Shown in pieces: positions 1 to 12,075 of a stretch of DNA of 64,000 bases. A model generated the notes under the pieces. The model saw only the letters and a list, made by a program, of their open reading frames with translations, had not been told where the DNA came from and did no database searches. Made by a program: the position numbers and the translations under genes. Numbering within the stretch: the stretch's first letter is position 1; the number at the start of each line of letters is the position of its first letter. The stretch is from Octopus sinensis (taxonomy: Eukaryota): assembly GCF_006345805.1 (NCBI RefSeq), contig NC_043003.1, positions 26,908,001 through 26,972,000 on the forward strand, read 5' to 3'.

Positions 1-377
1 CACTGCAAGATGTACAAGAAAGTATTATAACAGTAAAAAAATAATATGGGTGAAAAAAGAAGTGGCATTCCCTAACCAGTTATAATTATAGGCAAAGAAA
101 AATTCAAAAAAACTTGATGAAACATTTGGATCAGAGATCGATCCTAGTGGACAGGAGGTGAGATTTGAAACCTTGCCTCCGGTATTAGACTGGGAAGACG
201 TAGTAAAAATAATGACTAAAGACGTTAAAGTAATTACGAAAAACAAGATAACTGATTAAATTTAACTACCAAGTACGGGCGAGGCTCGAGTAGACATTAC
301 ATCCTCATTATTACCCTTGCATTTATTTCATACGCTTTTTATTTTTTTTCTCCACTGTTCAAATTGTCTGTCCTCGT

Positions 378-600
378 TTGAACTCAGAACGTAGCGGCAG
401 ACGAAATACTTATTTCTTTACTACCCATAAGGGGTTAAACACAGAGGGGACAAACAAGGACAGACAAATGGATCAAGTCGATTATATCGACTCCAGTGCG
501 TAACTGGTACTTATTTAATCGACCCCGAAAGGATGAAAGGCAAAGTCGACCTCGGCGGAATTTGAACTCAGAACGTAGCGGCAGACGAAATACGCTAGCG
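378..600 (-). mobile_element. Nin-domain SINE copy
   Basis: Reverse complement of the 62752 family. Confidence 0.75.
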
Positions 601-751
601 GTGTCATATGAAATTGTCACCCATAATTATGACCCTAGAATCGATCTATTGCATTTCAATCTATTTTAGATTTAGGGTTAGGGGTGGGGGAAGGGTATCT
701 TTTTTTCTTCACAAATATAAATGAACCCAATCTGTTTCTTAAACGAGGGAC

Positions 752-1120
752 ATATTCATACGGCACAGAATGCTTTTTAACTCAATAGACGTCAGTGATT
801 GGTTGAAATTGCAGAAATTGAAGAAATTAAAGACCAAATATATTACAAACTATAGGATTTTCTCAATAAAGCCAAGAGAAAAAGATGTTTTATAAACACA
901 TTCTACCAGTATACGAAGTTTAAAATTTTTTAGTTATATTCATACGGCACAGAATGCTTTTAAACTCAATAGACGTCAGTGATTGGTTGAAATTGCAGAA
1001 ATTGAAGAAATTAAAGACCAAATATATTACAAACTATAGGATTTTCTCAATAAAGCCAAGAGAAAAAGATGTTTTATAAACACATTCTACCAGTATACGA
1101 AGTTTAAAATTTTTTAGTTA
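752..1120. repeat. ~184-bp perfect tandem duplication
   Basis: ATATTCATACGGCACAGAATGC...TTTTTAGTTA occurs twice. Confidence 0.85.
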
Positions 1121-1755
1121 CCTAGAAATTATGTTAAAAACCGAAAAAATCCGAATCAAATCCATAGTTTCTTTGTATGAAGCAAGTTATGAAACAACTT
1201 GTATGTGGTCGCTCGCTTTGCTAGAGATAACAACAAAAGCATAACATTAAATTGTAACTAGGAAGTTGTAGTTGTTTAAATATTTTAGTTCTTAAACCAG
1301 GTTGTATAGTTTCAGTATAAATATAGGATGATATGGTAATGTATACAACGCTTTGATTGTAAGCACTAGTGTAGCTGGTGGGGGGGGGGGGAGTAGGAAC
1401 AGTCCAACCCGGATGGTACTTTTAAAGGGGCGACACTTTTGGGTTTGCTGTAGGCATTATGTGTTTTTTGTGGGGTTTGAAGGCGGTAAACAGAAGGGCA
1501 GTCCAGGGCAGCACACTAGTGGCGCTAATGACTGTAATAAGCATGATTTGGTATTAAACAGCAAACTAAACAACAATACTACTCGAGTGTTGTGACGTCA
1601 TGAGTTTAGAGTTATTTTGTTTTATGCTAATATAGCGCCATTGAACATACCATATTTAAGTAAAGTGAAAGAAAACCTATATAAAATTATTGGAAACGAT
1701 GTAAGGTAATGAGGGCATAACCGTAGCAAGCAATTAAATGTGAGTGCAATGTATA

Positions 1756-1799
<44 letters not shown>

Positions 1800-1982
1800 T
1801 TTATTCTGAAACAAAACTGTCCGACGAACGGGAAAGTAAAACTGAGTAACAGTTTTTGTGATATTTTTGCTGCTTTTTTAATAAACCATATTACTCTACC
1901 TCTAGTATTCGAGTACTATTTTTTCCACCTTGTTTCGCAATTATGTGCTTACTTTGGTGTGTATATATATATATATATATAT

Positions 1983-2302
<320 letters not shown>

Positions 2303-2693
2303 AAAAGTCCCCTATTTTATTTAATTTGCTTTGCGGGAAGGATTGTTTCAATGGAGTCGCGTCTTGTCCTTACCTTCGTAACGCGGGTTAGATGAAACAG
2401 GGACAACTGAAGAAGGGGAAATATTCTTTATATTGCATGTCTCGTTTCTCTGTTTGTATTTTTTTTCGTTGTTCGAAAAAGAGTTCGTTTTCTGTTTTTG
2501 CTTTTGTTTCTCATCGTGTTCAACTTTTTTTATGTCCTGTACCCATATATGCATGTATATATACATATAAATGTAGGTATGTACATATATATATGCATAT
2601 ATTTATATATCATATATAGGTATGTATGTATGTATGTATGTATGTATGTATTATGTATGTATGTATGTATGTATATTTATATACATATATATA

Positions 2694-2745
<52 letters not shown>

Positions 2746-2818
2746 ATTATATTATATATATCAGTAGGGGCAAAATAATGCAATGTGTATAGAAAGCCTG
2801 TTGTAGACGTGTTCAGTT

Positions 2819-2978
2819 ATCGCTTCTCGGCCTTTTCGCTAAGATCAAAGTGTAGTATTTATCCTTATCAGCTTTATATCTGAATATCTGAAACATTTAG
2901 GGCCATACAACGAGGCGAAAAGTTATAGGGCTTGCCTTTGCCACGGGTTGACCTAGTATTGCAATACTTCGAAGATAT
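2819..2978 (+). pseudogene. U2: Degenerate U2 snRNA copy
   Basis: ATCGCTTCTCGGCCTTTTcGCTAAGATCAAAGTGTAGTA matches the U2 5' end and branch-point recognition sequence. The 3' part CCACGGGTTGACCTAGTATTGCAATAC resembles stems III/IV. The stem IIb and Sm-site region is shortened or mutated. Confidence 0.85.
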
Positions 2979-3014
2979 AATTAAATCATAGATTGACTTA
3001 CACACACACACACA

Positions 3015-3105
<91 letters not shown>

Positions 3106-3311
3106 TTGCTCTGTGTGTGTGTCTCTCTCTCTCCTTTGCTCTGTGTCTCCTTTTCTCGTATCCACAGATTTACCATGCGAGTTTTGTTTTTACGATTCGC
3201 AGTCTCAGTTCAAATACTTCTGAGGCTAAGAAACTTTCCGCTTTCAGCACCTTCGAATGATATAAGCATTTTAAATTTAGGAACACTTGTAACAAGATAC
3301 TCTATGTGTTA

Positions 3312-3480
3312 TGTATTTCGTCTGCCGTTACGTTCTGAGTTCGAATTCCGCCGAGGTCGACTTTGCCTTTCATCCTTTCGGGGTCGATTAAATGAGTACC
3401 AGTTACACACTGGGGTCGATATAATCGACTTAATCTGTTTGTCCCCTCTGTGTTTAGCCCCTTGTGGGTAGTAAAGAAAT
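3312..3480 (+). mobile_element. 5'-truncated Nin-domain SINE with 23-bp TSD
   Basis: AGATACTCTATGTGTTATGTATT occurs at 3295-3317 and 3481-3503. Confidence 0.8.
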
Positions 3481-4294
3481 AGATACTCTATGTGTTATGT
3501 ATTGAACACTTTCAATTATAGGGACACTGATTAAATCTGACCAGTTTCTAGCGAGTCAACGACGAAGCCTCTGAACTGGTGCTCCATCTGCTAGAAATGC
3601 CAGCTAACTACTCCTCAGACTCATTCTTAGAATCTTAAAAATGAACAAAAAATAATCGTTTAACAGTATAGTTCAAGATTTGTATGAAAAAATTATGGTC
3701 ATGTCTGGGACGGCTGAACAACAATCCATTTTGTTGTTAACGATTAACTCTAACCTAATGATTTTTGGTTTGAAGCAAACTACTCTCTTTAATGAGCAAC
3801 GAGCAAGCAACAGCACTCTGTGGTGACTCGATTTGTTAGAAATAATAGCCATAACAAAACATTCAATAGTTACGAGGAAGTTGTTACGTTTAAATATACA
3901 TTAGCTATTAGACCAGGATGTATAGCTTCAATATAAAATTACGATTTGATAGTAAGTCTGCTCGATTAAACATCGTCTGATATTAAACAGCCAACAACAA
4001 TGGTGTTAGGGTGTCATGAAGCAAAAGAAGTGGTAGATAAATGGCCAATAGCGTTAATGTAGTAACACCATTTTGACTTGTTTTAGTTATTTAGCTGTAT
4101 GCTATTATAATGTCATTAAACATTAAATATTTATGCAAACTTAATGAAATTTATATAAACTTATTGGAAATGATACAAGGTATTAAATTCATTAAGAAAA
4201 TTTATGTAAATTTTATCAAAAAATCAAATTGAGTTATGGAGATGTACTTGCATAGCAAGTGACCTGATCTGAGATCGTGTGCTGGAACGAAAAT

Positions 4295-4626
4295 AATTGC
4301 AGCGGGGAAGGTGTTTATAAGCCATTTAAGAAACACACAAAAACCGTTAGATTCACTTCAACATTTAAATTTAATTTGTCAAAATATTTTCATCGCTTTG
4401 AAACCGCGACCTGCTCAGTGACAAAATTCGGTGCTTAATTTGTCAAAATATTTTCGTCGCTTTGAGATCGCGACCTGTTCACTGACAAAATTCTGTGCTG
4501 CAAAGAATTTTGTCAGTGAACAAAGTGACGAAAATATTTTGACAAATTAAATTTAAATGTTGAAGTGAATCTAACGGTTTTTGTGTGTTTCTTAAATGGC
4601 TTCTCAACACCTTCCGCGCTGCAATT
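4295..4626. mobile_element. Fold-back element with ~100-bp inverted arms (Penelope-like pseudo-LTR candidate)
   Basis: AATTGCAGCG...AAACACACAAAAACCGTTAGATTCACTTCAACATTTAAATTTAATTTGTC is mirrored at 4540-4626 and encloses the hammerhead-like motifs. Confidence 0.6.
4373..4492 (-). ncRNA. Two tandem minimal type-I hammerhead-ribozyme-like motifs
   Basis: Minus strand reads TTTGTCA-GTGAACA-G-GTCGC(loop)GCGAC-GAAA-ATAT-TT-TGACAAA (4492-4437), with a sibling carrying core CTGAGCA (4428-4373). Confidence 0.55.
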
Positions 4627-4873
4627 AAATTGAGTGTTATGTGTAATATAATAAATCAGTGAGTTTAAAACAGAGCAATATATATAGAAAGTCCGTGGTA
4701 GTGTTGCAAACGGACGTCTTTCTGAAAATGTATATGAGTACGGTGATTCTTTTTGCTTGTTAAAATTTTGGTGAGGGTGGTCTCGTGTGAGGCTGCCCAT
4801 TGTTGAATTAATTGTTTGAACTGCTGATTTTAAAAATATTGTTGTTGGCCATTTCAGCAGTTGTGTTGTTGCT

Positions 4874-5786
4874 ATGAGTTTGCCACTTGTAGAGATAGAA
4901 AGTGGTGTCAGCATGGAGTTTGATACTATTCAGAGCTATGCAGCTGCTGCCAGGTCCAGTATAACACAAGAAGAGTCAAAAATGGAAATGGCAACGCTAG
5001 GCCTGAGCAGAATAGAGATGAAAATAGAAGAAATAAAGAAATGCAAGAAAATTATCAAGAAGGAGGGAACAACATATTCCATAGTACCTCCGGAATAAGC
5101 TTTAGAACAAACAAGAAGGAGAACAGTAGTGTATAGATCACAGCTAATTGAAACCAGAAAAATGGAAGTGGTAACAGAAAGAGAAATAGAGGAATGCTTA
5201 AAACCAATACCGGAATACGCAAAATACTAGACGAGAGGAAGAAAGCGAAGAATCAGCGAGAGAATTCTCGACCAGGGTGTTAAAATCGAAATGCGAAAAT
5301 TAGGGTAGGTCCTGTGCCCCCGGAGATTGAAGAAATATGGGTAGTGGCAGCAGTTTTGGCTGCCACTGAAGAGGCAGCACGATTAATAAGCTCAGCCTGA
5401 ACCAAACAGATAAACTAATGGGGATACGGCTTGGAGATTGAACTACATGTATTGAGTAAGGACATAGAAAAAATTCCTTACGGAATAGGATTGCCAGAGG
5501 AAAGGACATTAAAAATTGTAGTAGAAGGAAGAAAACCAAACTGTCACTTATGCGGAAAAAGAGGCCACATGAAAATAGATTGCCCGGATTATTCCAAGCT
5601 GACTGGGAGAAAAAGTGAAATAATAAGTGAACCAGTTGTGGTGCAAACTGCGATTGAGCCAGAGATAAATGAAGAGAGAGAAAACAGTGGACAGCAGCGA
5701 TGGAAGCAACTGTGCAATAAAACCAAAAAGGAGGAAAGAAAATGGAACCAGGCAGATACCAGAATCAAGTGCTCCACATGTTTATA
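4874..5786 (+). mobile_element. Degenerate retroelement gag/ORF1 fragment with CCHC zinc knuckle
   Basis: Broken purine-rich ORFs. CHLCGKRGHMKIDC fits C-X2-C-X4-H-X4-C. Cut off by a Helitron. Confidence 0.65.
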
Positions 5787-6299
5787 TCTATATATATAAA
5801 ACTCTAGTTGTGTGAGTGTCTGTCCCCTTCGATTTAGATTCCTAACTACTCCCACATTTTGCGGTGCAGTTTAACCAAATTCGGGTATCTTATAGTCGTG
5901 ATTCATATCGAGCTCGTCTGAGTATTAGCACGCGTCTACGATGAGTTTACGATTTTAAAAATAATTTAACATCATTTTTTATTCCATTTTAATGCATAAT
6001 TTTTCGTGTGTCGATGGCGGCGGAGTTGGCGTCTAAGGTCACACTTGCACCTGTTTGCTTCTTCCCCTTCTTCCCTCCCTCGTGAAGCTGTGGGGAAGGC
6101 AGTGTAAGGAAATCAACGTCGTAAAGCGTTGTCAAGGAGACCAGTGTTCTTTTAGAACAACGACTTCATGGCTTGAAGACACCAAAACAAAAATGGCTAA
6201 GAAAGCCCGAATTGGCATCTATAAGGGAAGTAACTCTCTAAAAATGCTTATATAGTTATTTCCCTTACAAACCCGAGCAACGCCGGGCGATACTACTAG
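5787..6299 (+). mobile_element. Non-autonomous Helitron
   Basis: A|TC...CTAG|T ends, subterminal hairpin CCCGAGCAACGCCGGG and no TSD. Nearly identical to 56028-56545. Confidence 0.8.
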
Positions 6300-7895
6300 T
6301 GTTATATATGAAAATAAGCTCCAAAAGTATATATTTATACCAGAGAGAGTAGAATATAGAGGTATACAATGTCTATGGTAGGTTTACACCATGAAATAGT
6401 AGCTAACTTCTCCACCCAAACAAATCAAACTTTCACGCCTTAAGAATGTAATATGCTTGTGTTGAATAATATTATTCTAGGTGTCTATATGAGGAAAGGA
6501 TGGTCATTACTGGAACACCAACTCAAAGGGGACTAAAATGCTAAATAAAAAGCAACCCTATTTTGCTCACATGATTCACCTAACAGTATTCTAAGCAATA
6601 TTTTGTGCTCATTGTGATTTAGCAGTGGAAACGAACTTAGTGTCCCTTTTTATGAAAAAAAATAATGAACTGACCTCTATGTGGTCGCTCGATTTGCTAG
6701 AAATACCAACCAAAACATTCACTGTTGACAAGGAAGTTGTTAGTTGTTTACATATATATTAGCGATTGGACCAGAATGTACATTTGTAATATCTAGATAA
6801 GATCTATGGTTATATGTAGATGGCTTTGATCCTAGTTCTGCTCGATTAAGCATGACTTAAACAGTGAAAAACACAGCAGGTGACTCAAAGCAAATGAAGT
6901 AGCAGTTCTGAAGCCAACAACTCTCTCTCTATTATAGTGACATCATGTGACAAGTTTGTGTTATTTAGTTTGTGTTATTACTAGCTGATGTGCCCAGTAA
7001 TTTCCAGGAAAGTGGGGCTTATCCATTGACTCCGTTCTCATAATAGTTTTGCTAATCCAATAACAACAAGAATACAAAGTATGTAGCCCTTAAAATGGTT
7101 TTTGTGCATTTATTGAGAATACCGAACTGTCTTACACAGGATCTTTAGGAAATCCCAATAAGTTATGAATACCCAATTTGTGAAGTCAGTTATGTAATAA
7201 CATGAAATTAGTTACCCGATAATAAGAATTAAAATAAAGTAGTCCCGAAAAGAGCTTTAATGCGTTCCTAGAGTATATAGAACATAGGAAATACTAATAA
7301 GGTATGTATACTAAAATCATGAAGCATGTTACGTAATAACAGACTAATCAGAAATGAGATAATAACAATTCAAAGTAAATAACACTGAAAAGGGCTTTTG
7401 TGCATTCCCAGAGAATATTACCCTCAGGGGTGCTGGTGTTGGTATATTCATGAATAAGTCGCTAACCGAAATAAGTGGATCTATTGTTTAGGAAAATACT
7501 ATTTACTTGTTTAAGGGTTATACTGGATAAATTGTGAGAATAACAGTTCAAATACTAAGAAATAAGCATACTTAATTTCATTTTTTACCAAATAATTTAG
7601 GAAAATGGGTTATTTCTCTTGGCTATATATAAGGATCCCTTCCAGGGACTCCTCTCCCACTGAAGACAACTCAGACCCTTTAAGGTCTGAATACATTTTC
7701 TCTAAACCACTGCCAAGCAGCACAAAAATTCTGTCCGACTCTCAAGAAAACAAACCAGCAACTGAATCAACACATGCGCAGTAACTGTCTTCTACCTCAC
7801 CAGCTCCTGTCACCTGTTCTACCCAGGCATGCATGGAAGACAGACATTAAACGATGATGGTGATTATGATGTTGCTGATGATGATGATATATATA

Positions 7896-8290
7896 TAGAA
7901 ATAGCAGTCAAAAACCGTTTATTCCTATTTACTACAAATATAGCTCCACATATAACATTTACTTGTAACTCACATATGCAAAAAAAAGGAAAAATAACGA
8001 AAACAAACAGTCATCGGTCAGTTGTGGATGCGTTTCTGGGTTAGAATTTTTTTGCATATGTGAGTTACAAGTAAATGTTATATGTGGAGCTATATTTGTA
8101 GTAAATAGGAATAAGCGGTTTTTGACTGCTATTTCTAAATTTTTGGTATGTGGCTAAGCAACTTGTTGCTTAACCCTATTTATATATATATGTATATATA
8201 AAGCGTTCCTACCGATAATGGTTATATTTCCATACCGAAACTACTTGGTAATAATTATTAATTTTTAAAATTAATAATTATTTACCCTTA
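7896..8290. mobile_element. Fold-back element, TAGAAATAGCAGTCAAA family, copy C
   Basis: ~90-bp near-perfect inverted arms (7896-8137) plus a one-sided tail (CTACTTGGT...TTACCCT), with (TA)n on both flanks. Confidence 0.7.
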
Positions 8291-8325
8291 TATATATATA
8301 TCCTTGCTTGGATATTTATCACTTC

Positions 8326-8868
8326 CGAGGGTCCACCATAATAATGAGACACATTTTAATTTCTAGTATCTTTGGATTATAAAGATGACAGAGCATACCA
8401 AATATATTTATTTCATAACTGATATATAGGAGGTCAACATATTATCTAAGATTTGATTATTACATCCTGGAGATGGTGACCACCATAAAGAGAACATTCA
8501 GGGGCTTGCTTTCTCATATCATGCACACTGCAGCTTAGCATATCAACTGGAATGACAGCAATCGCCTGTCGCACAGAAGTTTGTAACAGCATGCAAGATC
8601 ATTGTTCAGGATAGTGCCTGTCATTTTCGAAAATACTGTCGGAATTTTCTTTGGGCCACAACAATGCTCCTTGGCTGGTGAATATGCTTTGACCAGGTAT
8701 CTTATTTCTTTTGGAGTGCACAACATTATGAAGGTCACCAACACCAACTATCTGCAAAAGAACTCCTATGTAATAGTTATGAAATAAATATATTTGGTAC
8801 TCTATATCATTTTTATAATACAAGATACAAACATTTAAAATATGTCCCATCATTACAGCCCACCCTCT
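8326..8868. mobile_element. MITE or deleted DNA transposon with ~105-bp TIRs
   Basis: ACCAAATATATTTATTTCATAACT...ATAGGAG is mirrored at 8763-8868. Confidence 0.6.
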
Positions 8869-9213
8869 GTGTGTGTATTGATTCCTGTATATAGGCATCT
8901 ATGTCTGTGTGCAAAATAAAAAAAAAAATGATCAAATGTAGTGGGAATATAATTAGCTGAAACAGAGAGACATAGAAAAGGCAAGAGTAATTATTACGGC
9001 GATATAAGATATCAGCAACTAAGAGAAGTTATTGATGGTAGCTATCTTATTTCTATCATACTAGAAATTATTCCCGTTCATGCTTCTAAACTTTTTACCT
9101 TCACTCTCTCTCTTCCTCTCTCTTTCTCTCCCCCTCTGTTTGTGTTATATATATGTGAGTGTATATATGTTATGTAACACATACATACATGTATGTGTAT
9201 ATATATTTATACA

Positions 9214-9322
<109 letters not shown>

Positions 9323-9397
9323 GTGTGTGTATGTATACATATTGGGTTAAGGTGCTCAAAGAATGAATGTAATATGAAACATTAAATGTTTTTTCCA

Positions 9398-9606
9398 GGT
9401 GGTACTATTACGTTAGACATGGCCTGGGCCAATTCTGGTTGAAAATTTATCTAAGTACACACACATACACACATGTGTGTGTGTATACACACACACATAC
9501 ACACGCACACACACATACACACGCAAGCTTATATAAAACTTAGATAACTTAGATATATTTCGACCAAAGATTGGTCCATGCTATGTCTAGCTTAATAGCA
9601 CCACCT
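9398..9606. repeat. Diverged inverted repeat around a (CA)n core
   Basis: GGTGGTACTATTA..TAGACATGGC..ATCTAAGT is mirrored by ACTTAGAT..GCTATGTCTA..TAATAGCACCACC. Confidence 0.5.
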
Positions 9607-9619
9607 GATAGGTTTAGAT

Positions 9620-10745
9620 AAATCCTTTTTAAGTCAAGTTTTATGGTATCATGGTTAATTCGAATAGGGAGTTCTTGTTGAATGGGTTGTATCCAGGTAT
9701 AGGTGGCTTATCTGGTATTCCTTGAAGAAATTTGTCCAGATTTCATCTAAAGGTGAAGGAATCCTTTCCCTCTTTGATCTATTTCGGAACAATGTTAAAT
9801 AGAGCAGGGCCTGTTGAGGAAAAGAAATTGTGTGGCAGTGATCTTGAAATGGGTAGGGGACATATGCCCCGTGGTCCTAGCCTTGGATGAATTTTAAAGC
9901 TAATGTTGAGGTCATTTGGGCAATGCTGATGGTGTATTCTCCACATCATGCAAATGATGTATCACTCATAGTGGTGCTGGAGAGAATAGAGTTTCAATGC
10001 TTTAAGGTGGTCCCAGTTATCAAGATCACTCATGCCCTTAATTCTTTTAGTGAATGTCTTCTGGGATGTTTCAGTTTTTGAAATGTTTTGTTTTGTATGG
10101 GGAGACCACAGGGGACAGCAGTATTTGAGGTGTGACCATACAAAGGAGGAGAAAGAGGAATGATGATACCTTGTCCTCTGGATCCAAGTGCTCATCCTAT
10201 GAGCTATATCAACCTTATTGTTGATGTGGGCATTTCGGCTGAGATTGTTGTCAACAATTACTCCTAGGTTTCTGATATTATTAGATGCTATGAAAGGTTC
10301 CCCCGAAGGAAGAGAGTATGGCTGTTTTAGCATAGTCCTTCTTCCAAAATGTGTCAGCTCAAATTTTCCCTTGTTCAGTTGCATTTTGTTTTTGTCTGCC
10401 CATTGACTCACAGCTTATAGATCAGACTGGAGTTGAGTTCAGTCTTCTTCTTCACTGATAATTTTCTGGAGCTTGGAGTCAACAGTGAATATTTTCACTT
10501 TGCTGTATTTTATGGTGCTGGAAAGGCCATTTATATAGTCTATAAAGAGAAGGGGTCCCAAGACAGTCCCCTGAGGGACACCACTGATAACTTTTTTCTG
10601 GGCTTGGGTGGATTCCACTGATCGCAACATGTTGTGCTCTGTTCTCCAAGAAATACTCAATCCAGTATAGTTTTCCACAGATTCCAACATTCAACTATTT
10701 TGACAATAGGATATTGTGGTCGACTTGGTTGAACACTTTACTGAA
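9620..10745 (-). mobile_element. CR1/L2-group LINE reverse-transcriptase fragment, frameshifted
   Basis: Motifs SGVPQGTVLGPLLF, QWADKNKMQLNKGK, RNLGVIVDNNL, HLKYCCPLWSP and LKALKLYSLQ. Confidence 0.85.
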
Positions 10746-10752
10746 ATCAAGA

Positions 10753-10796
<44 letters not shown>

Positions 10797-10800
<4 letters not shown>

Positions 10801-10983
10801 GCACATAAAATCACCCACTACACTCTCGGAGTGGTTGGCGTTAGGAAGGGCATCCAGCTGTAGAAACACTGCCAGATCTGACTGGCCTGGTGCAGCCTTC
10901 GGGCTTCCCAGACCCCAGTTGAACCGTCCAACCCATGCTAGCATGGAAAGCAGACGTTAAACGATGATGATGATGATGATGAT
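10797..10983 (+). mobile_element. Retroposon 3' end with (GAT)n tail
   Basis: GGCGTTAGGAAGGGCATCCAGCTGTAGAA...CCCATGCTAGCATGGAAAGCAGACGTTAAACGATGATGAT. Related tails lie at ~7822 and ~15708. Confidence 0.6.
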
Positions 10984-10990
10984 ATATATA

Positions 10991-11452
10991 TACAGTGTAC
11001 ATTTAAACACACAAGAGGCATCTATCAAGTTAAAGAGGATTGTTAAACTCCAAACCACAATTAGGGATAAAATTTCGAAGGGACTGAAAAATAAAAAACT
11101 GGGGCATATACTGGATTGCCTCGTGTATATATATTTAATCTAAAATATACCTGCTAAAGAAGAATTTGTCTAGCAAATTATTTTATTTACTAAAAAAAAG
11201 TCTGAAACCATTGGTCCAAGAGTTAGATGGTAAATGTTTTTATTTTTCATTCCCTTTGAAATTTTATCCCTAGGTTTGGAATTTAACTGTCCTCTCTAGC
11301 ATGCAAGGAATCCTATGATGGATGCCTCTTGTATGTTTAAATGTACACTGTATTTGTATGAATAATATATAGTCTATTGACTAAATTTCTACATGCTAGG
11401 CCACTGGTAATGGAAATTTCAAATATTTCTGATTACCCTTTGATATTATTAA
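10991..11452. mobile_element. Fold-back element with different arms but a similar tail and (TA)n flanks
   Basis: TACAGTGTACATTTAAACA...TGTTTAAATGTACACTGTA are inverted arms (10991-11352). The tail CATGC..CACTGGT..TTACCCT runs into (TA)n. Confidence 0.55.
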
Positions 11453-11651
11453 TTATATATATATATATATAATTTTAAGTCACACTATATGGAGTCAAGT
11501 AATCCAGTAGTACTCATAAAAAAGCTCCTTCATGTGTCATTGTCTAAACCATATAAAATATATTGTGATATACAAGAGAAAAGGATAAGGAGTGTATGTA
11601 GTCAAAAATGACTGAGAAATATTTTAATGAATCTTTATTTAACAATAAAAA

Positions 11652-11947
11652 ATCCAAATATCATGACAAACTTGTTTCATAACTCAAAGAACAGGTAAAT
11701 AACTTATATTATCGTATTTAATAAATAATAAATAAATTACATATCTGCAAAGATACAAAATGTAAAGATTTCTTTCAAAATAATGAAGAGTTTCAGCTAT
11801 GTCATCAGGTGAAATGAATTTTATGTTAAATGTAAATCTTGGCGTAACGAAAGACATGGAAGTAATTTATTTATTATTAAAAATGATAATAAAAGTTATT
11901 TACATGTTTTTTGAGTGATGAAACAAATTTGTCGTGATATTTGGATA
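11652..11947. repeat. Inverted-repeat element
   Basis: ATCCAAATATCATGACAAACTTGTTTCAT... is mirrored by ...ATGAAACAAATTTGTCGTGATATTTGGAT. Confidence 0.55.
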
Positions 11948-12075
11948 TTTGAATCGACCCCAGTTCATATTTTTTAAACCTGGTAGTTATTCCATCATTC
12001 TCTTTTGCTGACCCGCTAAGTTACAGGAACAAACACACCAACATCACTTGTCAAGCATAATGACAACCCATATAG

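What the first reader, a model, noticed from the sequence alone, without database searches (positions are those of the whole stretch)
4373..4548. Tandem minimal hammerhead-like ribozymes with a compensatory G3:C8 core inside a fold-back element
Seen: the minus strand at 4492-4437 reads stem I (TTTGTCA/TGACAAA), GTGAACA, an extra G, stem II (GTCGC/GCGAC), GAAA, ATAT, then TT. A tandem sibling at 4428-4373 has core CTGAGCA. A third, inverted copy at 4506-4548 lacks most of stem II. Established: the hammerhead core is C3UGANG8A...GAAA...NUH with a 3:8 base pair, and Penelope-like elements carry tandem minimal type-I hammerheads whose palindromic loop III allows dimeric cleavage. Inference: GTGAACA is a G3:C8 swap that keeps the pair, so this could be a non-canonical dimer-dependent ribozyme (UU site, extra purine after A9) that CTGANGA searches would miss.
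Basis: partly seen in the sequence, partly recalled or inferred. Interest (0 to 1): 0.85.

Follow-up and report, generated by a model that had tools for sequence, protein, structure and literature searches.

The report
Penelope hammerhead with flipped core pair
The motif is the small hammerhead RNA fold carried by a Penelope-like jumping gene with about 7,000 copies in this animal genome, in which the core pair normally read C3:G8 is flipped to G3:C8 throughout the lineage; it likely still cuts itself slowly (untested), and most copies were likely made from RNA that had not been cut.

Summary
The sequence is as described. It is one insertion (4235-4626, 9-bp target duplication) of a Penelope-like element (PLE). 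G3:C8 is the family state: 6,963 exact genomic matches against 55 for C3:C8, and an older subfamily has it too. The motif lies 3' of a GIY-YIG endonuclease gene in 13 of 29 parent loci. Sister PLE families in the same genome carry the same fold with C3:G8 or U3:A8, and with compensatory changes in stems I and II and in the palindrome. So it is a real hammerhead homolog with a natural swap that I did not find in print; one key paper was not held. Corrections: the 'sibling' CTGAGCA is a C3·C8 mismatch, the 64-nt tandem is local (0 of 131 other loci), and the extra G is standard. Cleavage is unshown. 60 of 89 copies run through the predicted cut site; only 2 end there. Mispaired G3·G8 copies and an A9C sister family exist, so cutting may be weak or dispensable. 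Earlier scan notes report G3-C8 motifs on other DNA (unchecked).

The parts
4235..4626 (.). Whole PLE insertion: main copy on - strand, an extra 5' unit, and an inverted 5' copy
4226..4234 (+). Left target-site duplication (AAATTGAGT)
4627..4635 (+). Right target-site duplication (same 9 bases)
4439..4489 (-). Hammerhead unit 1, family-typical G3:C8 core at 4482-4476; predicted cut between 4446 and 4445
4375..4425 (-). Hammerhead unit 2 of the main copy; decayed (C3·C8 mismatch, N7 changed, C11.1 to U); predicted site 4382/4381
4435..4498 (-). 64-nt extra unit joined 5' of the main copy (likely an RT template jump); starts near the inferred transcription start of the family
4295..4374 (-). Spacer ending at the first fixed 3' end (likely RT start site 1); candidate ORF start codon at 4325-4323
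4235..4294 (-). 60-nt 'tail' ending at the second fixed 3' end; codes like the N-terminus of the PLE ORF
4506..4626 (+). Inverted 5' copy without tail; its hammerhead lacks half of stem II

Best explanation
The motif is the minimal type I hammerhead fold in the terminal repeat of a Penelope-like retrotransposon family, with G3:C8 fixed across the lineage, and it likely remains a slow ribozyme that would need a partner copy or the element's protein, while most insertions, this one included, were likely copied from uncut RNA. Shown: membership of a family with thousands of copies, its position 3' of an RT/GIY-YIG ORF, the G3:C8 family state, covariation against sister families, and the distribution of copy ends. 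Inferred: (1) an internal promoter starts a capped RNA 23 nt upstream of G3; (2) RT starts at one of two sites about 140 and 200 nt downstream of that start and copies back through the hammerhead to the cap, giving ~210-nt SINE-like copies in trans, often with an inverted 5' copy; (3) two motifs could pair through the ATAT palindrome to build helix III; (4) slow chemistry (G3:C8, U17) is tolerated because cutting would separate the capped 5' end from the RT start sites. The tandem pair at this locus is a by-product of one insertion and probably does nothing.
For: Family size: 2,440 blast candidates; 1,773 exact matches to a 28-nt tail word. Core states in one 18-nt context: G3:C8 6,963, C3:G8 615 (sister family B), G3·G8 256, C3·C8 55; reversed-pattern controls 0, 0, 0, 6. 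In copies chosen by the tail only: G3 in 60 of 61, C8 in 55 of 61. Older subfamily E with positions 3 and 8 left free: G:C in 56 of the first 100 listed of 228 matches; most of the rest are transitions (A:C 15, G:T 9), and C:G is 3 (my tally). Parent: L311 has an inverted copy abutting an RT (YVDD) plus endonuclease fragment. 13 of 29 other loci of that endonuclease have the motif about 850-1,460 nt downstream on the same strand; 10 of the 13 are G3:C8. The endonuclease passes Pfam GIY-YIG (25.5 bits, cut-off 22.6). Families A-D form one endonuclease clade. Between-family compensation: stem I 2.6:1.6 T-A (A) vs G-C (E; 9 of 24 copies); 2.3:1.3 T-A vs C-G (D); 2.2:1.2 C-G vs T-A (C); stem II 10.4:11.4 G-C vs A-T (B, D); 10.3:11.3 C-G vs T-A (C); palindrome ATAT (A) vs AT (E, C). 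In one D locus the tail runs on into a 196-aa open frame (L365). Ends: 60 of 89 copies extend 5' of the core, 37 stop within 6 nt of one point, 2 stop within 2 nt of the cut site. 26 of 34 distinct short-copy junctions carry a G just 5' of that point where the parent has C/T; 18 of 25 in unrelated flanks against a 12% background, p=5.5e-12. In a PLE hammerhead, C3G/G8C partly restores cleavage, cleavage needs the protein, and uncut RNA is the main insertion substrate (PMC11167929).
Against: No cleavage was measured. RNA-seq reads from two runs of another organism label cover the motif on both strands about equally, with no pile of ends; fragmented libraries are a weak test. G8 in a G3 background is about twice as common as the C8-to-T transition (about 189 vs about 94, scaled from listings) and occurs in several subfamilies, including 2 of 13 parent-linked copies. 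The youngest sister family D has A9C in 14 of 16 distinct copies. So broken cores do not stop transposition. Only three 3:8 states in one clade were compared and their branching order is unresolved, so this is not a formal covariation statistic. Stem I of family B is imperfect. The extra 5' G could mark a start at G or a short spliced exon instead of a cap: the parent has a branch-point-like word and a pyrimidine-AG at exactly this boundary.
Confidence: 0.65

Rival explanations
1. The fold is a hammerhead descendant that no longer cuts. It is kept as a structural element of the element's RNA (protein binding, RNA dimerisation, positioning of RT start sites) or because it overlaps the internal promoter, and G3:C8 is kept for shape or for DNA-level function.
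For: Templates were mostly uncut. G3·G8 excess and A9C in the youngest sister family. No RNA ends at the site. Hammerhead mutants do not impair PLE insertion in vitro (PMC11167929). Naiad PLEs thrive without hammerheads (PMC8557442). G3 sits 23 nt downstream of the inferred start, where an internal promoter would lie (internal promoter shown for Penelope, PMC2377424).
Against: The unpaired catalytic residues (U4 G5 A6 A9 G12 A13 A14, A15.1-U16.1, non-G at 17) stay fixed between families A, E, B and C while N7, loop II and the stems change (in E the G12 and A15.1 columns are decayed, 14 and 10 of 24). Both double changes at 3:8 are Watson-Crick. That pattern is what selection for catalysis predicts.
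Confidence: 0.27
2. One reading: the two tandem units at 4492-4373 form a functional dimer-dependent ribozyme at this locus.
For: The two units can be drawn as a double hammerhead with a 6-bp helix III at -22.8 kcal/mol, close to the monomer fold at -24.9.
Against: One core is C3·C8. The minimum-energy fold of the pair is a misregistered one (-27.4). The upstream inverted copy pairs over both units (-208). No such close tandem occurs in 131 other loci. The units differ at 6 of 64 bases, like independently decaying copies.
Confidence: 0.05
3. The fold-back is a DNA-transposon (MITE-like) or chance hairpin, and the hammerhead likeness is accidental.
For: The ends of the unit are partly complementary and many copies are fold-backs (29 of 131).
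Against: Fixed 3' ends at two sites, ragged 5' ends, linkage to RT/GIY-YIG ORFs, sister families with canonical cores, 0 hits in 150 shuffles.
Confidence: 0.02

Closest known systems
Minimal type I hammerheads of metazoan Penelope-like elements (Cervera and De la Pena 2014, PMC4209133; parts 1-2 of 4 read, supplement searched by term)
   Same: Sits in the terminal repeat 3' of an RT/GIY-YIG ORF; helix III reduced to a palindrome; one extra base between 9 and 10.1; G10.1-C11.1 pair; thousands of dispersed single motifs; inverted pairs 100-700 bp apart.
   Different: Core is G3:C8. The passages read report only C3-G8 and U3-A8, and 'G3-C8' and 'octopus' do not occur in the one supplement file that held matches (one file could not be searched). 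N17 is U. Stem I is longer (7 bp).
Natural U3-A8 core variant (Perreault 2011, PMC3088659, section 8 read; Schistosoma Cercyon PLEs, PMC4209133)
   Same: Natural covariation of the 3:8 pair; a U3:A8 sister family is present in this genome.
   Different: Here the pair is inverted (two transversions), putting C at position 8, whose 2'-OH is the proposed general acid (PMC6155905).
Engineered C3G/G8C hammerheads, including the PAc (Anolis Poseidon) hammerhead (Frangieh 2024, PMC11167929, parts 1-2 of 4 read; review PMC8495972, passage)
   Same: Same base swap; partial rescue of cleavage; tail defined by two RT start sites inside the ORF start; uncut RNA used for insertion.
   Different: That was a laboratory double mutant; this is a natural, lineage-wide state. 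Here the ORF start lies downstream of the hammerhead, not in stem II.
Neptune/Nematis-type EN+ PLEs (Craig 2021, PMC8557442, passages)
   Same: C-terminal GIY-YIG with a cysteine-rich linker, (TA)n targets (32 of 91 tails), inverted 5' copy, tail at one end.
   Different: The tail is about 60 nt rather than 30-40. Clade not assigned: families A-D form their own group apart from two other GIY-YIG PLEs of this genome, and no reference set was available.
Non-LTR retrozymes (bioRxiv 10.64898/2026.07.22.740005, part 1 of 5 read)
   Same: Short, non-coding, hammerhead-bearing copies derived from PLE terminal repeats.
   Different: Retrozymes are tandem arrays. These copies are mostly single or inverted pairs (one three-unit tandem and one two-copy locus among 131).

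Membership tests
Hammerhead ribozyme | Three-way junction with stems I and II in the right register around the core | tested here: met
   7-bp stem I, 5-bp stem II; compensatory differences between families
Hammerhead ribozyme | Core U4 G5 A6 N7 . A9, G12 A13 A14, A15.1-U16.1, H17 | tested here: met
   All present in the window unit and in 42-46 of 46 family copies per column; H17 = U
Hammerhead ribozyme | Watson-Crick 3:8 pair | tested here: met
   G:C in 41 of 46 copies
Hammerhead ribozyme | Consensus identity C3 and G8 | tested here: not met
   G3 and C8; this is the variant
Hammerhead ribozyme | Self-cleavage after N17 | not testable with these tools
   No assay. Indirect signs are negative or weak: 2 of 89 copy ends at the site, no read-end pile
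PLE minimal hammerhead (Cervera 2014) | Palindromic 15.2-16.2/loop III, extra base after A9, G10.1-C11.1 | tested here: met
   ATAT or AT, extra G, G-C in 37 of 46 copies
Penelope-like element (EN+) | Motif 3' of an ORF with RT and C-terminal GIY-YIG endonuclease | tested here: met
   13 of 29 parent loci; RT YVDD; Pfam GIY-YIG over cut-off; no ORF in the window itself
Penelope-like element (EN+) | Optional 3' tail, inverted 5'-truncated copy, ragged 5' ends | tested here: met
Penelope-like element (EN+) | Tail equals the start of the ORF | tested here: inconclusive
   Seen in one locus of sister family D (L365); not seen for this family among 181 tails of all families examined
Neptune or Nematis clade | RT phylogeny with reference elements | not tested
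   No reference sequences; only a within-genome endonuclease tree
Non-LTR retrozyme | Head-to-tail arrays with a hammerhead in each unit | tested here: not met
   2 of 131 loci have same-strand repeats, none under 200 nt

The most novel reading that the evidence does not exclude
A natural, catalytically active G3:C8 hammerhead lineage, kept through at least two waves of a Penelope-like family, in a clade that has sampled three Watson-Crick states of the 3:8 pair. Its attenuated cutting acts as a brake that lets capped, uncut RNA from an internal promoter spawn thousands of SINE-like copies. Genomic copy ends would then be a direct in vivo record that PLE hammerheads are mostly bypassed during insertion.
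Probability: 0.4. Interest if true: 0.68.

Novelty: new variant of a known kind. Interest (0 to 1): 0.5.

Why it matters
G8 is treated as a fixed catalytic residue, and G3:C8 is known to me only as a laboratory rescue. A natural lineage of about 7,000 copies with that swap would widen hammerhead search descriptors and give a natural test set (C:G, U:A, G:C, plus A9C and G·G) within one clade of elements. The role of PLE hammerheads is stated to be unclear (PMC8557442). The 5'-end pattern here gives genomic support for the in vitro result that uncut RNA is the insertion template, and it can be tested by CAGE and cyclic-phosphate sequencing. If the motif does not cut, it is still a case of a ribozyme fold kept for another job.

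Tried and rejected
Rfam scans: no hammerhead hit in window 1-12000 or on five control loci with canonical, U3:A8 and G3:C8 motifs, so uninformative. A Pfam GIY-YIG search of the genome mostly returned other PLE families without this motif. The endonuclease fragment next to the copy in L029 belongs to sister family D, not to the parent. A metagenome pattern scan gave 120 loci and no relative; one had both stems and may be chance. The idea that U17 is a second-site partner of G3 (avoiding a G3-C17 mispair, PMC3884650) is not supported as specific: U17 also occurs in families C and D. A splice-acceptor reading of the sharp 5' end was considered and ranked below a capped start, because short copies share only one extra G and no exon-like upstream sequence; it is not excluded. 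A search for older subfamilies by tail gave 12 hits, mostly truncated before the core. The alignment had mis-set coordinates for three rows and was not used for counts. RNA reads showed no end pile (weak test). Literature: searches for 'G3-C8', 'C3G'+'G8C'+'natural', 'G3C8'/'N17', octopus+Penelope+hammerhead and the Przybilski title found no natural G3:C8 hammerhead. Lunse et al. 2017 (PMC5785218), the paper most likely to list PLE variants, is not held, and one supplement file of PMC4209133 could not be searched.

Full report
Observation. A second unit 64 nt away differs at 6 of 64 bases, and an inverted copy on the + strand lacks half of stem II. A hammerhead descriptor allowing any Watson-Crick 3:8 pair finds this one motif in the window and none in 150 shuffles. 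The sibling core CTGAGCA is C3 facing C8, a mismatch.

What it belongs to. The stretch is a repeat: 2,440 blast candidates and 1,773 exact matches to a 28-nt word at its 3' end in a 2.7-Gb genome. It is also held by sequencing runs under six organism labels. Copies end at one of two fixed 3' points about 60 nt apart, have ragged 5' ends, often carry an inverted 5' copy (29 of 131 loci) and often run into (TA)n (32 of 91 tails). These are the insertion marks of Penelope-like elements (PMC8557442; PMC11167929). The window's copy is one insertion, 4235-4626, between 9-bp direct repeats. No PLE ORF lies in the window.

The parent. One locus (L311) has an inverted copy abutting a 5'-truncated RT plus GIY-YIG fragment about 50% identical to an intact PLE ORF of this genome. 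Searching with its endonuclease gave 325 candidates. Of the 29 other loci fetched, 13 have the motif about 850-1,460 nt downstream on the same strand; 10 are G3:C8, 2 G3·G8 and 1 G3·U8. The remaining 16 showed no sense-strand motif within the 1.5 kb held (one has only tail and inverted pieces there). The endonuclease passes the Pfam GIY-YIG cut-off.

The swap is a family state. In a fixed 18-nt context the genome holds 6,963 G3:C8, 615 C3:G8, 256 G3·G8 and 55 C3·C8 matches. In copies picked by the tail alone, G3 is in 60 of 61 and C8 in 55 of 61; within this family the core decays like its flanks, as expected after insertion. An older, more decayed subfamily (E), searched with positions 3 and 8 free, has G:C in 56 of the first 100 listed of 228 matches; most others are single transitions (my tally). 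In RNA reads of another organism label no variant was listed at positions 3 or 8, though 15 rows were not shown.

Covariation. The C3:G8 matches are a sister PLE family (B), whose motif lies about 520 nt behind a related endonuclease. Two more sisters were found: C with U3:A8 and D, young and with open ORFs of 880-1,044 aa. Their endonucleases form one clade with four well-supported groups in unresolved order. Their tails are colinear and read like one peptide; in one D locus the tail continues into a 196-aa frame. Between families N7, loop II and the spacer change, while U4 G5 A6, the extra G, G12 A13 A14, A15.1-U16.1 and a non-G at 17 stay as the commonest letters (weakly so for G12 and A15.1 in the decayed E copies). 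Paired positions change on both sides in stem I (T-A/G-C, T-A/C-G, C-G/T-A), in stem II (G-C/A-T, C-G/T-A) and at 3:8 (C:G, U:A, G:C), and the loop III palindrome is ATAT in A and AT in E and C. Families B, C and D were picked with patterns that include the core, so their core constancy is partly built in; A was not. Stem I of B is imperfect.

How copies are made. Among 89 tail-selected copies (2 duplicates dropped from 91), 60 extend 5' of the core, 37 stop within 6 nt of one point 23 nt upstream of G3, and 2 stop within 2 nt of the predicted cut. At that point 26 of 34 distinct short-copy junctions have an extra G where the parent has C or T; 18 of 25 in unrelated flanks, against 12% background. 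Extra 5' Gs have been read as a sign of capped templates in LINE-1 (PMC2831318, passage), and Penelope has an internal promoter (PMC2377424, passages). I infer a capped RNA from an internal promoter, copied from the tail through an uncut hammerhead. The parent also has a splice-acceptor-like sequence at this boundary, so a very short spliced exon is not excluded.

Does it cut? Untested. For: the covariation pattern, and partial rescue by C3G/G8C in a PLE hammerhead that needs its protein (PMC11167929). Against: templates were mostly uncut; RNA reads show no end pile and cover both strands (1,611 and 1,216 reads in two runs, a weak test); G8 in a G3 background is about twice as frequent as the C-to-T transition at that site (about 189 vs 94, scaled from the first 100 rows) and appears in several subfamilies; and family D has A9C in 14 of 16 distinct copies. 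I put measurable self-cleavage at about 0.65-0.7.

This locus. The close tandem was seen in none of 131 other loci. A double-hammerhead fold is possible (-22.8 kcal/mol) but is not the best fold, one core is broken, and the inverted copy is predicted to pair over both units. It is most likely a dead insertion with a template jump.

Novelty. PLE minimal hammerheads with an extra base and a palindromic loop III are known (PMC4209133), as is natural U3-A8 (PMC3088659). I found no natural G3:C8 hammerhead in the searches named under Tried and rejected, but Lunse 2017 was not available. Unchecked notes of this scan report G3-C8 motifs behind Penelope-like RTs and in phage arrays in other genomes. 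Verdict: new variant of a known kind, interest 0.5. The host looks like a cephalopod to me; that is a recalled guess from its repeats and comes from no call.

Noticed in passing
G000 family D, e.g. L377:7371-7432(+) and ORF L377:3710-6841: A young PLE family with near-identical copies and open ORFs of 880-1,044 aa carries A9C in its hammerhead core (14 of 16 distinct copies), while older copies keep A9.
   Followed up: partly
L550-L579: C8-to-G changes are about twice as common as the C8-to-T transition and recur on several subfamily backgrounds: unexplained (replicating G3·G8 sources or a mutation hotspot).
   Followed up: partly
L063, L067, L070 (C3:G8) and L066, L069 (U3:A8): Other PLE-type hammerheads in this genome, some with long loop II and 6-nt palindromes in loop III.
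   Followed up: no
Parent loci, e.g. L469 and L474, 45 nt upstream of the motif: A branch-point-like word and pyrimidine-AG sit exactly at the 5' boundary of the short copies; possible intron end as in Drosophila Penelope.
   Followed up: partly
window 2819-2990 (+): U2 snRNA copy, 73 bits, with a degraded central part; probably a pseudogene.
   Followed up: no
window 5419-5796 (+): ORF fragment with a CCHC zinc knuckle (Pfam zf-CCHC, E 8e-4), likely a retroelement ORF1 remnant.
   Followed up: no
window 7893-8140 and 11648-11950: Two other fold-back elements (94-nt arms 98% complementary; 99-nt arms 85%) without a hammerhead motif.
   Followed up: partly
L168:2838-2884 (-), metagenome contig: One of 120 pattern hits has a G3:C8 core with a 7-bp stem II and a 5-bp stem I; may be chance or a microbial G3:C8 hammerhead.
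   Followed up: no
L381 minus strand 8061-9341 of the reversed locus: A 427-aa frame ending in a GIY-YIG-like domain with a different cysteine linker, possibly a Hydra-type PLE (label from PMC8557442 description, not tested).
   Followed up: no
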